Source of the DNA: an uncultured Verrucomicrobiota bacterium
GTDB lineage: Bacteria; Verrucomicrobiota; Kiritimatiellia; CAIQIC01; Lenti-01
Assembly: GCA_937860055.1 (NCBI GenBank)
Contig: CALMBO010000029.1
Coordinates: forward strand, 425,372-489,371
Length of the DNA: 64,000 nucleotides
Direction of reading: 5' to 3'
Shown here piece after piece: positions 14,154 to 16,805 of this stretch (positions are counted from its first letter, which is position 1; each line of letters opens with the position of its first letter). A program made the translations under genes and the position numbers. A model generated the notes under the pieces. The model did no database searches. It worked only from the letters and a program-made list of their open reading frames with translations, and had not been told where the DNA came from.

Positions 14154-16805
14154 TCAGGGCGGCGGGGAATACGGCGCGACGACGCGGTAGGACCTGGACG
14201 TCGCCGCCAGCGCGTTGCTGTCGACCTGCAGATAGGGCGCGCCCGTCACGTATCCGCCCCACGCCGTCCACGGTGGGCTCGCCGAGCTCAGCAGGTTGGT
14301 CGTGTACTGCGCCTCGTAGGTCACGCCATTCGTGCCGTCCCACCAGATCGTCATCTGGTTCGTGGCCGTGTGCAGAAGGTTGGTGATCGCGAACGTATTG
14401 GTGTCGGGGGCCGGCTGGTAGATGGTGATGGTGTAATCCTCCACCTCGCCGTCGGAAGCGAAGCCGGCGTAGCCCAGGCCCGCGTAGCTGCAGAAGCGCA
14501 TGCGGCCGAACGTCGGGCCCACCGCCGCACCCGCGGGGGTGGCGATGGTGACCGCATTGCTGCCGGGAACGAGCGCAAGATCCGCAACGGCTTGTTCGCC
14601 GGCGTCGGCCCAGTCGCCGTCCGCATTGAAATCCACCCACAGGTTCAGATACCCGTTGCTGGAGGCATAGGCCGCGACCGTCTTGTTCGAGCCCCTCACC
14701 AGCGTCGCCGAAACCGCGACCCAATCTTCGTCGTCGACATTGTTGCTGTCGTCGCCCAGCGCCTGGGGATCGGCCCATCCGTCCGGCTCGGTGTCGGGCG
14801 CGATGCCGCCCAGCCAATAGGCCGAAGGCGTGCGGTGCCGCGCGCCATCGCTGGCCAGCAGGGTCGGGTAGGAGGGATCCGGCGCGTCGCCGAAATCCAG
14901 CGATTCCAGCTGCACTTCGTAGTCCTCGACCTCGCCGTCGGGCCACAACCCCTGATACCCCGGGCCCGCAACAACCATGGCGTTCGTCGTGAACCGCCAG
15001 CGGGTCTGCGGGCTCCCCGCGTACAGCGACGGAGGCACCGGCACCGGCACCGATAGCGGATTGGGTCCTGGATTCAGCGGCTGGTTGAGGAATACCTGCT
15101 CGCCAACATCGGCCCAGTCCCCGTCGGCGTTCCAGTCGATCCACGCATTGAGGAAGCCGGCGACGGAAGCAACCACCTGCACCTGCGCCGTTGAACCGGC
15201 GTAGAGGGTCGCGGGAATCGTCACGCCGTCTTCGTCGTCGAGGCCCGCGGGCGGGTTGTTGTCATCGCCGGTGGCGGTGCCGTCGGGCTGGCCGTCCGGC
15301 TCGCCATCGATGGCCGCGCCCAGGAAGACTCCGGGCACGATGGTGTGGCAGGCGCCGGTGCTGGCCAGCAGGGTCGGATAGGTCGGATCGTCGGCGTCGC
15401 CGAAGTCGAGCAGTTCCTCCTCTTCCGCGTAGATCGGCACCGGGTAGTCCTCCACCTCGCCATCGGAAAGCAATCCCACATAACTGACCGGAGTCTGCAG
15501 GGTCGTGAAGCGGAACCGGGCGAACGTGTTGGTGGTCGCGGCGGCGGACGGCACGCCGAAGGCCAGGACGTTGACTCCCGCGGCAACCGCCTGCACGCTG
15601 AAAATGTTCTCGCCGGCATCCGCCCAGTCCCCGTCGGCGTTGAAATCGATCCAGGCGTTGACATATCCCGAAACGGAGGCCGTGACCTGCACGGTCGCAG
15701 TCATGCCGGCGACCAGCGCGCCCGGGAAAACGACGCCGTCCTCGTCGTCGAGGTTGGCCTTGTCGTCGCCGGTGGCGGTGGCATCGGGCTGGCCGTCCGG
15801 TTCCACGTCGATGAGCGAACCCATGTAAACGCCCGGGACGACGACATGCCGGGCCCCATCGTTGACCAGCAGGGTCGGATACGGGGTGTCCGGCGCGTCG
15901 CCGAAATCCAGATAGGGCTCTTCTTCGCCGGCGTCGTGGAAAACGGAAACGTCGCTCAGGCGCGCCGGGGGCTCCTCCTGCTGGAGGACATCCAGCGCGA
16001 GCGTCTCGATCCACGTGCTGATCTTCAGCGAAAGCGTGCGGTTCATCAGGATGTCGTTGGTCAGCGCGAACGACTGCACGATGGGCAGGTAGCGGGAATC
16101 GCCGGGCAGGAGGCCGCCGCCCGGAATCGCGAAGGACAGCTTGCGCGTGGCCGATTGGCCGATCGGAATGGTGCCGAATTCCCACGCGGGCACGAAATAG
16201 TTGCCAGAGGGCTGGTGCTGCTGGTCCGGATCGGCCGGATTCCAGCAATACCAGGCCCACAGGTCTTCGTTGACGGCTTCGATATAGGGCTTGAAGTCCA
16301 CGTACGGGCCCGTGAAAACGGCCGGCAGCGTGTTGGTGTCCTTGACGGCGAATTCGGCCACGAGCCGGGCCTCCACCAGCGGGCCCACGTAGGGAGACTC
16401 CTGGTAATTCAGTGTTTCGCCGTGGCGGTTGCTGCCGGCGCCCCACGTCGCGCCCGGCATCACGTCGTTGTAGATCGTGGCCTGGACGGTGAACGCCACG
16501 ATCGGCGTGCCCGGTCCGGCCAGATAGTTGATGGAATCGACGTAGCCGGTGATGGCGCCGGCGCCGGCGAAGCCACCTGTGGCGTTGTCGTAGAACTCGT
16601 TCGTGCGGACGCTCTCGAATCCGGTCGCGTCCATGAACCATTGCCCGTTGGTTGCCGCCGCATCCACCATCGGCCCCGTCAGCAGCGCCGTCGATTGCAC
16701 CGGAGGCTTGGAGATCGGCAGCGACGGCCCCGCCTCGGAAAGATGCGCCCCCCACAGCAAAAGCCCCGCCACGCCCGGCGCCACCCAGCCCATTTTTGTT
16801 TTCAT
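14154..16805 (-). CDS. large exported protein with three tandem GEVED-type repeat domains
   Basis: 883 aa with a signal peptide. The roughly 160-aa module LDFGDAPD..YPTLL..DGARH...EPDGQPD..GDD..DDEDGV...NAWIDFNADGDWADAGE....DGEVEDY recurs three times. The C-terminal approx 70 aa form a tail shared with two other exoproteins in this window. Confidence 0.8.
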   Translation of the reverse strand: MKTKMGWVAPGVAGLLLWGAHLSEAGPSLPISKPPVQSTALLTGPMVDAAATNGQWFMDATGFESVRTNEFYDNATGGFAGAGAITGYVDSINYLAGPGTPIVAFTVQATIYNDVMPGATWGAGSNRHGETLNYQESPYVGPLVEARLVAEFAVKDTNTLPAVFTGPYVDFKPYIEAVNEDLWAWYCWNPADPDQQHQPSGNYFVPAWEFGTIPIGQSATRKLSFAIPGGGLLPGDSRYLPIVQSFALTNDILMNRTLSLKISTWIETLALDVLQQEEPPARLSDVSVFHDAGEEEPYLDFGDAPDTPYPTLLVNDGARHVVVPGVYMGSLIDVEPDGQPDATATGDDKANLDDEDGVVFPGALVAGMTATVQVTASVSGYVNAWIDFNADGDWADAGENIFSVQAVAAGVNVLAFGVPSAAATTNTFARFRFTTLQTPVSYVGLLSDGEVEDYPVPIYAEEEELLDFGDADDPTYPTLLASTGACHTIVPGVFLGAAIDGEPDGQPDGTATGDDNNPPAGLDDEDGVTIPATLYAGSTAQVQVVASVAGFLNAWIDWNADGDWADVGEQVFLNQPLNPGPNPLSVPVPVPPSLYAGSPQTRWRFTTNAMVVAGPGYQGLWPDGEVEDYEVQLESLDFGDAPDPSYPTLLASDGARHRTPSAYWLGGIAPDTEPDGWADPQALGDDSNNVDDEDWVAVSATLVRGSNKTVAAYASSNGYLNLWVDFNADGDWADAGEQAVADLALVPGSNAVTIATPAGAAVGPTFGRMRFCSYAGLGYAGFASDGEVEDYTITIYQPAPDTNTFAITNLLHTATNQMTIWWDGTNGVTYEAQYTTNLLSSASPPWTAWGGYVTGAPYLQVDSNALAATSRSYRVVAPYSPPP
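14430..15917. repeat. approx 490-bp coding tandem repeat x3 (the GEVED modules) inside the 14154..16805 CDS
   Basis: Protein residues approx 297-792 form three homologous modules, each ending in GEVEDY. Confidence 0.7.

What the first reader, a model, noticed from the sequence alone, without database searches (positions are those of the whole stretch)
14154..14336. Conserved approx 60-70-aa C-terminal tail shared by three unrelated large exoproteins (candidate sorting/anchoring domain)
**Shared pattern.** The last approx 65 residues of three proteins follow the pattern [T/A]Y[E/R][A/I/L][Q/E]x...A/P-x-x-W-[T/N]-(20-30 aa)-R-x-Y-R-V-x(3-6)-P-end.
- The GEVED protein (14154..16805) ends VTYEAQYTTNLLSSASPPWTAW...SRSYRVVAPYSPPP.
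- The GH13 amylase (25362..30176) ends RAYRIEFLDGALSNAPQAWNAF...QRSYRVWVGLP.
- The small exoprotein (46970..47683) ends RTYRLEHADALATNPVAWTP...LRYYRVLDATP.

**Carrier proteins.**
- All three have N-terminal signal peptides and otherwise unrelated architectures.
- The 990-aa paralog (43861..46833) ends with a divergent ...SRKIIRIGLTSP.

**Interpretation.** The tail does not match PEP-CTERM, LPXTG, T9SS CTD or the Gly-Gly/VPEP families as I know them. A shared short C-terminal beta-domain on diverse secreted cargo suggests a lineage-specific cell-surface sorting or attachment signal.
Basis: seen in the sequence. Interest (0 to 1): 0.55.

Follow-up and report, generated by a model that had tools for sequence, protein, structure and literature searches.

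The report
Uncatalogued C-terminal FN3-like tail domain
Three unrelated exported proteins in this Verrucomicrobia-type window end in one uncatalogued FN3-like domain ("...RFYRV...P-stop") that sits where homologous proteins carry known surface-sorting signals, so it is a good but unproven candidate cell-surface sorting or anchoring tag.

Summary
Three ORFs (883 aa with three GEVED domains; 1604 aa, weakly GH13-like; 237 aa) end in one homologous 75-90-aa domain. No other ORF in the window has it. The 990-aa paralogue does not.

- **Fold:** it is a divergent fibronectin-type-III-like beta-sandwich (AF2 pLDDT 90; best PDB fold matches are FN3 domains). No Pfam or NCBIfam model covers it.
- **Spread:** an exhaustive profile search found 138 cluster representatives. 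A scan of species genomes found 185 confirmed sites, almost all in Verrucomicrobiota.
- **Position:** a copy ends within 5 residues of the protein's end in 130 of 146 proteins and within 2 residues of the stop in 93 of 93 ORFs in genome loci. The last residue is proline in 74%. Internal copies exist only as tandem arrays, nearly all running up to the C-terminus.
- **Carriers:** cargo is very diverse and mostly has signal peptides.
- **Substitution:** homologues of the window's GEVED unit end instead in PEP-CTERM, a T9SS sorting domain or dockerin.

Best reading: a lineage-specific C-terminal targeting or attachment module (confidence 0.45). The main rival is an ordinary FN3 stalk or binding module (0.33). 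No partner or processing enzyme was identified.

The parts
14157..14402 (-). C-terminal FN3-like 'FYRV' domain of the GEVED protein (residues 802-883), ending ...SRSYRVVAPYSPPP; the stop codon is at 14154-14156
   Evidence: Translation checked. Family HMM E = 5e-26. Profile lacking its own subfamily E = 1.5e-14. AF2 model pLDDT 90.4. Foldseek best hits are FN3 domains.
14154..16805 (-). Carrier 1: 883-aa exported protein with a signal peptide, three GEVED domains and the FYRV tail
   Evidence: ORF. Pfam GEVED E = 1.4e-38, 3 stretches. GEVED is described as a stalk domain of fibrillar adhesins (PMC10952558).
25365..25634 (-). C-terminal FYRV-type domain of the 1604-aa protein (residues 1515-1604), a divergent subtype with two insertions, ending ...QRSYRVWVGLP
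   Evidence: Translation checked. Family HMM E = 3e-19, but that HMM includes its orthologues. hhalign of the subtype against the core family: probability 97.4 %, E = 1.4e-11.
25362..30176 (-). Carrier 2: 1604-aa exported protein with only sub-threshold alpha-amylase (GH13) similarity
   Evidence: ORF. Pfam Alpha-amylase E = 0.0014, 18.4 bits, below the 22-bit cut-off. NCBIfam cyclomaltodextrinase E = 2e-4, far below cut-off. No PDB match by phmmer.
46973..47206 (-). C-terminal FYRV domain of the 237-aa protein (residues 160-237), ending ...LRYYRVLDATP
   Evidence: Translation checked. Family HMM E = 7e-16. Loci-only profile E = 2e-8. Core profile E = 8.7e-12.
46970..47683 (-). Carrier 3: the minimal architecture, a signal peptide plus one ~140-aa domain (shared with the neighbouring 990-aa protein) plus the FYRV tail
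   Evidence: ORF. 48 % identity to residues 12-158 of the 990-aa protein. No Pfam or NCBIfam family at threshold.

Best explanation
The tail is a previously uncurated, divergent fibronectin-type-III-like beta-sandwich of about 75-90 residues. Its consensus is ...tItW.s..G.tYrlQY.d.L....W..l......tDt.a...qRFYRV-x(2-8)-P-COOH. It is specific to Verrucomicrobiota, with a few sightings in other members of the Planctomycetes-Verrucomicrobia-Chlamydiae (PVC) group.

**Proposed mechanism**
1. The carriers are exported across the inner membrane by the Sec pathway (N-terminal signal peptides).
2. The folded terminal domain then acts as a common address or attachment module. It binds a conserved envelope partner non-covalently, either an outer-membrane or surface protein or the LPS glycan.
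3. This keeps very different cargo (adhesin-like stalks, glycosidase-like enzymes, lectin-like domains) at the cell surface. It is functionally comparable to dockerin, the T9SS C-terminal domain or PEP-CTERM, which replace it in homologous proteins.
4. The conserved free C-terminus ending in proline is part of what is recognised, or protects the tail from C-terminal proteolysis.
5. Tandem copies upstream of the terminal one act as a stalk.

**Shown:** homology of the three tails, the FN3-like fold, the terminal position, the terminal proline, cargo diversity, the prevalence of signal peptides, the taxonomic restriction, and substitution by known sorting signals.

**Inferred:** the targeting or anchoring function, the existence of a partner, and the role of the proline.
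For: **One family, not chance**
- (see the observation check).

**No curated model covers it**
-.

**Fold**
- AF2 with a 65-sequence alignment gives pLDDT 90.4 and pTM 0.78.
- Most of the Foldseek PDB matches that superpose well (rmsd about 3-5 A) are FN3 domains (TM 0.5-0.63, probability up to 0.99).
- The family profile's best PDB sequence match is the C. thermocellum 'Fn3-like protein' 3mpc, E = 1.1e-3.

**Position**
- 130 of 146 proteins from the exhaustive search have a copy ending within 5 aa of the end.
- All 93 domain-bearing ORFs in 80 genome loci end within 2 aa of the domain, including 13 ORFs that were not the targeted match.
- The last residue is Pro in 92 of 125 representatives, against 6.7 % background. 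In internal copies the first Pro mostly lies 7-8 residues after YRV.

**Carriers**
- 46 Pfam families occur in 40 carriers.
- Signal-peptide-like N-termini are seen in 31 of 52 M-start proteins; most of the rest look like fragments. About 42 of 55 locus ORFs also have them.
- Several genomes contribute multiple loci, and this window has 3 copies in 64 kb.

**Choice-of-anchor evidence**
- Directly after ...DGEVEDY..., homologues of the window's GEVED unit carry one of four alternatives.
  - PEP-CTERM: TIGR02595 above cut-off in P0163, P0167, P0169 and P0192.
  - A T9SS type A sorting domain: TIGR04183 26.5 bits against a cut-off of 23 in P0171.
  - Dockerin: PF00404 in P0199.
  - The FYRV domain: P0151.
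- P0122 combines 'T5SS/PEP-CTERM-associated repeats' (TIGR04393) with an FYRV tail.

**Cell envelope**
- The organism encodes LpxC and a Kdo transferase, so it has LPS and therefore an outer membrane.
Against: - No partner, sortase-like enzyme or conserved neighbouring gene was found in the window or in 80 related loci.
- The domain has an ordinary FN3-type fold and forms tandem arrays of 2-8 copies in some proteins. That is typical of stalk or spacer modules and is not seen for T9SS, PEP-CTERM or LPXTG signals.
- It has no cleavage motif, hydrophobic helix or lipid-attachment motif.
- Apart from the terminal proline, terminal and internal copies look alike.
- The genome-locus figure (93 of 93) is biased, because the scan pattern came from C-terminal copies. 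Only the 13 bystander ORFs and the exhaustive search are unbiased.
- There are no experimental data on the localisation of any carrier.
Confidence: 0.45

Rival explanations
1. It is an ordinary structural FN3-like module, a stalk, spacer or ligand- or carbohydrate-binding unit of adhesins and enzymes, with no sorting or anchoring role. Its C-terminal position would simply reflect how these modular proteins grew, for example by repeated 3'-end duplication and domain shuffling within one lineage.
For: - The fold and the best PDB matches are FN3 domains. One is the Fn3-like spacer of a multimodular C. thermocellum xylanase (3mpc/5g56).
- Tandem arrays of up to 8 copies occur.
- Carriers are rich in other stalk-type repeats: GEVED, MBG_2, Big_9, cadherin-like, Ig and PKD.
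- No dedicated machinery was found.
Against: - A spacer has no reason to be the last domain in about 90-100 % of carriers.
- It has no reason to end the polypeptide 3-9 residues after its last strand with a 74 % conserved terminal proline.
- Single copies are appended to a minimal 237-aa protein and to enzyme-like cargo.
- Homologous cargo carries bona fide sorting signals at the same position.
Confidence: 0.33
2. It is a true secretion signal for crossing the outer membrane, a functional analogue of the T9SS C-terminal domain. An unknown translocon would recognise it, and it would be removed or exchanged for a lipid or glycan anchor by an unknown sortase-like enzyme.
For: - Same size class, beta-sandwich nature, extreme C-terminal position, cargo diversity and multi-copy occurrence per genome as T9SS CTDs.
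- A T9SS type A domain replaces it in the GEVED homologue P0171.
Against: - No sequence relationship to T9SS CTDs: no Pfam or NCBIfam hit, and hhalign against the P0171 CTD gives 0.2 % probability.
- No T9SS CTD appears among the top 50 structural matches.
- Tandem internal copies are not a feature of cleaved export signals.
- No cleavage motif or candidate machinery was identified.
Confidence: 0.12
3. It is a chance or compositional resemblance of three high-GC ORF ends, or shadow-frame artefacts.
For: The window is 66 % G+C and full of long spurious ORFs.
Against: - The three ORFs have coding-type GC3 of 0.86-0.92.
- Profile E-values reach 1e-14 with profiles independent of the tails themselves. 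The best of the 3000 shuffled tails (2913 of which scored) reached 10.6 bits.
- There are 138 representatives elsewhere and 185 confirmed genomic sites.
Confidence: 0.01

Closest known systems
T9SS type A C-terminal sorting domain (TIGR04183 / Pfam Por_Secre_tail) of Bacteroidota
   Same: - A beta-sandwich of about 70-100 aa at the very C-terminus of many otherwise unrelated, Sec-exported proteins.
- Many copies per genome and lineage-restricted.
- It occupies the same slot after the GEVED unit in the homologue P0171.
   Different: - No detectable sequence or profile similarity.
- The best fold matches are FN3 domains, not CTD structures.
- Found in Verrucomicrobiota, not Bacteroidota.
- Occurs in tandem arrays.
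- Has a conserved terminal proline.
- No PorU/PorV-like machinery was identified.
PEP-CTERM / exosortase sorting signal (TIGR02595)
   Same: - A C-terminal tag on diverse exported proteins, common in Verrucomicrobia-type genomes.
- It replaces the FYRV domain in close homologues of the GEVED unit.
   Different: PEP-CTERM is a ~25-aa motif (PEP, a transmembrane helix and a basic cluster). The FYRV tail is a folded, soluble ~80-aa domain with no hydrophobic helix.
Dockerin modules (PF00404): non-covalent C-terminal attachment domains
   Same: - A folded C-terminal module appended to diverse extracellular cargo that works by protein-protein binding.
- It also replaces the FYRV tail after GEVED units (P0199 carries Pfam dockerin PF00404; P0184, P0208 and P0211 have dockerin-like repeat tails by eye).
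   Different: - Dockerin is a Ca-binding helical duplicated EF-hand-like fold with a known cohesin partner.
- The FYRV domain is an all-beta FN3-like fold with no known partner.
Bacterial FN3-like spacer domains (e.g. PDB 3mpc, the Fn3 module of C. thermocellum CtXyl5A, 5g56)
   Same: - Best sequence-profile match in the PDB (E = 1.1e-3), aligned over strands A to F.
- FN3 domains dominate the structural matches.
- Strands A to C align with fibronectin FN10 in the canonical register.
   Different: - Not matched by Pfam fn3 at threshold.
- About 10-15 residues shorter, with an array period of about 76 aa.
- The alignment to 3mpc stops at strand F ('YYYVVSA' against 'RFYRVvl'), where the FYRV proteins end, so the canonical G strand appears to be missing. 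This is an inference; coordinates were not inspected.
- Strict C-terminal placement and a terminal proline.

Membership tests
T9SS type A C-terminal sorting domain (TIGR04183 / PF18962) | Significant match to the curated CTD profile | tested here: not met
   No hit for the three tails even at E <= 10. No hit for the whole window proteins or for 10 typical family members. hhalign of the family against a bona fide CTD (P0171) gives probability 0.2 %.
T9SS type A C-terminal sorting domain (TIGR04183 / PF18962) | A beta-sandwich of about 70-100 aa at the extreme C-terminus of Sec-exported, diverse cargo | tested here: met
T9SS type A C-terminal sorting domain (TIGR04183 / PF18962) | The host genome encodes T9SS machinery (PorU sortase, PorV, SprA and others) | not testable with these tools
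   Only 64 kb of this genome and loci of at most 12 kb from relatives are available, and none encodes such components. The lineage is Verrucomicrobiota.
PEP-CTERM sorting signal (TIGR02595 / PF07589) | A PEP motif followed by a hydrophobic transmembrane helix and a basic cluster at the C-terminus | tested here: not met
   No profile hit. A regex for PEP-CTERM-like tails finds none in the window. The tails are polar beta-strand sequences.
LPXTG / sortase A signal | An LPXTG motif, a hydrophobic helix and a basic tail | tested here: not met
   Absent from the three tail sequences. No NCBIfam or Pfam hit.
Fibronectin type III superfamily (fold level) | A seven-stranded beta-sandwich with the B-strand Trp, the C-strand Tyr-x-hydrophobic-x-Tyr and the F-strand tyrosine corner, plus structural similarity to FN3 domains | tested here: inconclusive
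   - **Fold similarity:** clear. The well-superposed Foldseek hits are mostly FN3, TM 0.5-0.63, probability up to 0.99, but all E >= 0.047.
- **Sequence:** profile against 3mpc E = 1.1e-3. The FN10 register matches strands A to C.
- **Strand count:** DSSP on the AF2 models marks only 5-6 strands of 3 or more residues, and the alignment ends at strand F, so a seventh (G) strand seems absent. Coordinates were not inspectable.
Pfam fn3 (PF00041) | A score above the gathering threshold of the fn3 HMM | tested here: not met
   The FYRV regions get no fn3 hit. The fn3 hits in P0048 and P0149 are separate upstream domains.
Dockerin (PF00404) | Duplicated Ca-binding loop-helix motif | tested here: not met
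   No Pfam hit on the tails. The AF2 model is all-beta.
'FYRV' C-terminal domain family (defined here) | A profile match over about 75 positions (B-strand W, G.tYrlqY, central W, qRFYRV), with the last copy ending the protein within about 10 residues, usually in Pro | tested here: met
   - **Window tails:**
- **Family:**
- **990-aa paralogue:** its tail is not a member.

The most novel reading that the evidence does not exclude
The FYRV domain is the recognition element of an undescribed PVC-specific surface-sorting or anchoring pathway. Many tail-bearing proteins per genome (at least several; extrapolated, not counted) would be served by one dedicated envelope partner. The mechanism would be beta-strand complementation: the domain is an FN3 fold that stops after strand F, so a partner protein (or the next subunit) would supply the missing G strand next to the conserved RFYRV strand, with the free prolyl C-terminus as part of the signal.
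Probability: 0.2. Interest if true: 0.85.

Novelty: new variant of a known kind. Interest (0 to 1): 0.55.

Why it matters
Verrucomicrobiota are abundant polysaccharide degraders in soil, water and gut. How they display or release their large exoproteomes across the outer membrane is largely unknown.

Every earlier recognition of a shared C-terminal tag (LPXTG, PEP-CTERM, the T9SS CTD, GlyGly-CTERM) led to a dedicated sorting machine. This family has the same genomic signature:
- strict C-terminal position;
- diverse exported cargo;
- many copies per genome;
- lineage restriction;
- interchange with known tags.

It has no curated model in the Pfam (2025) or NCBIfam (June 2026) libraries searched here.

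Even if the domain proves to be only a structural module, a profile for it would have two uses:
- it would annotate the many Verrucomicrobiota proteins that carry this currently unmodelled C-terminal domain;
- it would give a simple marker for the surface and secreted proteome of these mostly uncultured bacteria.

Tried and rejected
- **Word-indexed homologue search.** Run with the 3-tail alignment and with the 65-sequence family alignment. It returned only close orthologue fragments, so the index is too insensitive for this short, divergent domain.
- **Genome scan with broad alignments.** It worked only with four near-consensus tails, which biases the loci towards the QRFYRVxLLP subtype.
- **First AF2 model from 8 sequences.** Mediocre (pLDDT 78), and its Foldseek hits were uninformative. 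Superseded.
- **Conserved neighbours in 80 loci.** Only generic Verrucomicrobia families recur: DUF1559 prepilin-like proteins, histidine kinases, sulfatases, an ABC-F ATPase, PQQ propellers and DUF1501. Rejected as candidate machinery.
- **Rest of the window.** Housekeeping genes only; no sortase, exosortase or secretion genes.
- **Literature.** No paper describes this motif or domain. Only the GEVED stalk-domain paper was relevant.
- **Cluster look-up.** Gave no names or taxa.
- **990-aa paralogue's tail as a divergent member.** Rejected.
- **Weak choice_anch_C hits (TIGR04362, E = 0.02-2e-4).** Far below cut-off. In P0023 and P0048 they fall inside FYRV repeats, so they were not used as evidence.
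- **Crude signal-peptide heuristic.** The strict version found only 27 of 55 carriers against 38 of 223 controls. The looser hydrophobic-window inspection gave about 42 of 55.
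Full report
**1. The observation**

Each has coding-type base composition, with GC3 of 0.86-0.92. Each has an N-terminal signal-peptide-like sequence.

The domain is about 82 aa long, at 14157..14402, and the other copies lie at 25365..25634 and 46973..47206.

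**2. Is it more than chance?**

A profile of the three tails plus five orthologue fragments (A3) was searched against 1.84 billion cluster representatives. It found 138 proteins at E <= 1e-3. A family HMM built from those hits recovers exactly the three window ORFs (E = 5e-26, 3e-19, 7e-16), and the next best ORF scores E = 0.14.

To avoid circularity I rebuilt profiles without each tail's own subfamily.
- The GEVED and small-protein tails still score 1.5e-14 and 8.7e-12.
- A profile made only from tails found in GTDB genomes gives 5e-7 and 2e-8. The best of the 3000 shuffled tails (2913 of which scored) reached 10.6 bits.
- The tail of the 1604-aa protein belongs to a divergent subtype with two insertions. 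Only profile-profile comparison links it to the core family (hhalign probability 97.4 %, E = 1.4e-11, 63 columns running to the C-terminus).

The 990-aa neighbour shares its N-terminal ~150 residues with the 237-aa protein (48 % identity). Its tail is not a detectable member.

**3. What the domain is**

No Pfam-A or NCBIfam model matches the tails, even at E <= 10, or the corresponding region of ten typical family members.

With a 65-sequence alignment (A7), AlphaFold2 gives a confident beta-sandwich (pLDDT 90.4, pTM 0.78). Most of its well-superposed PDB matches are fibronectin type III domains (monobodies, FN10, CDO/BOC Fn3) with TM 0.5-0.63 and probability up to 0.99, though E is never below 0.047. 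No T9SS C-terminal domain appears in the top 50.

The family profile's best PDB sequence match is the 'Fn3-like protein' 3mpc of C. thermocellum, also present in the xylanase 5g56 (E = 1.1e-3). Strands A to C align with human FN10 in the canonical register.

The family consensus is ...tItW.s..G.tYrlQY.d.L....W..l......tDt.a...qRFYRV.

The alignment to 3mpc ends at FN3 strand F ('YYYVVSA' against 'RFYRVvl'). The array period is about 76 aa. The proteins stop 3-9 residues after this strand. The domain therefore looks like an FN3 fold without the G strand. This is an inference from alignments and secondary structure; I could not inspect coordinates.

**4. Position**

Of 146 proteins carrying the domain, 130 have a full copy ending within 5 residues of the protein's end. 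A further 83 copies are internal and lie in tandem arrays, nearly all of which run up to the C-terminus; examples are P0013 with 8 copies, P0014 with 6 and P0015 with 4.

The few apparent exceptions fall into three groups:
- weak hits to other repeats (P0056 is an MBG-type repeat protein);
- proteins with a degenerate terminal copy (P0030 ends ...FLRVRIVP);
- probable fragments.

In 80 loci from species-representative genomes, all 93 domain-bearing ORFs stop within 2 residues of the domain's end. Eighty of these were selected with a pattern taken from C-terminal copies, so only the 13 bystander ORFs are unbiased. All 13 comply.

In the unbiased representative set the last residue is proline in 92 of 125 proteins (background 6.7 %). 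It lies 3-11 residues after YRV, most often 4. After internal copies the first proline lies mostly 7-8 residues downstream. All three window proteins end in proline.

**5. Carriers and distribution**

Forty carriers contain 46 different Pfam families: GEVED/DUF7901, MBG_2, fn3, Big_9, cadherin-like, Laminin_G_3, PKD, Ig, beta-propellers and others.

Most proteins with a credible start have classical signal peptides. This holds for 31 of 52 M-start proteins, where most of the rest look like fragments. It holds for about 42 of 55 locus ORFs. A stricter heuristic gives 49 % of carriers against 17 % of neighbouring genes.

The genome scan confirmed 185 sites. The 80 retained loci are almost all Verrucomicrobiota: Limisphaerales, Pedosphaera, subdivision 3, Chthoniobacteraceae and one Kiritimatiellia. 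A few oddly labelled MAGs are probably mis-binned. One GEVED homologue with the tail is annotated as Phycisphaerae.

Several MAGs contribute two or three loci, and this window has three copies in 64 kb. The family is therefore multi-copy per genome. An extrapolation to about 100 or more per genome is rough and untested.

The window organism itself is only found in Logan metagenome assemblies. It encodes LpxC and a Kdo transferase, so it has LPS and therefore an outer membrane.

**6. Evidence bearing on function**

The most informative result is substitution at the same position. GEVED is a stalk domain of fibrillar adhesins (PMC10952558). Homologues of the window's last GEVED unit are followed, directly after ...DGEVEDY..., by one of four alternatives:
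- a PEP-CTERM signal (TIGR02595 above cut-off in P0163, P0167, P0169 and P0192);
- a T9SS type A sorting domain (TIGR04183 26.5 bits against a cut-off of 23 in P0171);
- a dockerin (PF00404 in P0199; dockerin-like repeats in P0184, P0208 and P0211);
- the FYRV domain (P0151, as in the window protein).

P0122 joins 'T5SS/PEP-CTERM-associated repeats' to an FYRV tail. This 'choice of anchor' pattern is how C-terminal sorting and anchoring signals have been recognised before; that statement rests on my own knowledge of that literature.

Three things weigh against a dedicated pathway.
- No conserved neighbour or candidate processing enzyme appears in the window or in the 80 loci.
- The fold is ordinary.
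- Tandem arrays are typical of stalk modules, not of sorting signals.

**7. Explanation and rivals**

I commit to a shared C-terminal targeting or attachment module. It would hold Sec-exported cargo at the cell surface by non-covalent binding to a conserved envelope partner, with upstream copies acting as stalk. My confidence is 0.45.

The main rival is an ordinary FN3 stalk or binding module whose terminal position is historical (0.33). It does not explain the near-absolute terminal placement, the conserved terminal proline or the interchange with known signals.

A cleaved, T9SS-like export signal is possible but less likely (0.12). Chance or artefact is excluded (0.01).

**8. Comparison with what is known, and novelty**

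In function and architecture the closest things are the T9SS CTD, PEP-CTERM and dockerin. Membership in each was tested and not met.

At fold level the domain belongs with FN3. It fails the Pfam fn3 model and seems to lack strand G.

Full-text searches found no description of the motif.

I rate it a new variant of a known kind: a C-terminal tag or attachment domain, here built on a truncated FN3 scaffold and specific to Verrucomicrobiota. Interest is moderate to high as a lead (0.55). It would be high (0.85) if a dedicated partner or a strand-complementation mechanism were shown, which I give about 20 %.

**9. Limits**

- Whole genomes could not be scanned, so copy number per genome and phylogenetic profiling remain to be done.
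- No coordinates, no SignalP and no experimental data were available.

Noticed in passing
window 16977..17576 (-): The next gene on the 5' side of the GEVED gene, on the same strand, encodes a 199-aa protein with a BURPS668_1122-family toxin-deaminase domain (Pfam E = 2e-26). Its N-terminus looks like a signal peptide (...WLWLAGLWAGFAQAEA). This is a possible secreted nucleic-acid deaminase toxin. No obvious immunity gene was examined.
   Followed up: no
window 43861..46833 (-): A 990-aa exported protein carries Flg_new_2 (two stretches), a lamin-tail domain and F5/8 type C (two stretches). It shares only its N-terminal ~150-aa domain with the adjacent 237-aa protein (48 % identity). Its tail (...SRKIIRIGLTSP) is not an FYRV-family member, yet it also ends in Pro.
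   Followed up: partly
window 25362..30176 (-): The 'GH13 amylase' label is weak. Pfam Alpha-amylase scores 18.4 bits against a cut-off of 22. The NCBIfam cyclomaltodextrinase hit is far below cut-off. phmmer finds no PDB match. About 850 N-terminal residues have no family assignment.
   Followed up: partly
window ~25640..25800 (-), and proteins P0001 and P0148: The GH13-type tails are preceded by a conserved ...PYAWLDGYYPG...DYEDLA...VWQ.YVAGLDPTD... segment. In the relative P0148 this is a D-rich, bacterial-TSP3-like 'GIPDVWE...DPDSNYDEYVANTDPTD' stretch. It may be a fixed linker or Ca-binding unit that travels with this tail subtype.
   Followed up: no
loci L016, L026, L029, L034, L035, L039, L040, L060, L063, L066, L067, L068, L079, L082: Contigs with typical Verrucomicrobia-style FYRV proteins sit in MAGs labelled Binatia, Baltobacteraceae, Bifidobacteriaceae/Bifidobacterium, Acidoferrum, Sulfopaludibacter or Haliangiales. 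Mis-binning or mislabelling is more likely than a genuinely wider distribution. Not checked.
   Followed up: no
window 17590..23979 (-): A cluster of signalling genes: a response-regulator-SpoIIE (PP2C) phosphatase, a receiver-PAS-histidine kinase, and a 1049-aa kinase with three periplasmic SBP_bac_3 domains.
   Followed up: no
window 2901..9585 (-): A V/A-type ATPase operon (A and B subunits, an I-subunit-like protein and DUF2764) in an LPS-containing, Verrucomicrobia-like genome.
   Followed up: no
window 24080..25522 (-): As listed, the nucleoside-transporter ORF overlaps the 3' end of the 1604-aa gene by 161 nt. The Pfam match starts at residue 71, so the true start is probably the internal Met (MWILRGLL...).
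   Followed up: no
proteins P0016, P0020, P0022, P0034, P0035, P0045, P0094 and window 14154..16805: GEVED-type carriers share a conserved mature N-terminus right after the signal peptide (...GPSLP[VI]TKPPVQS..L[LM]TGP...). Its function is unknown. It could be a second conserved terminal element in this subfamily.
   Followed up: no
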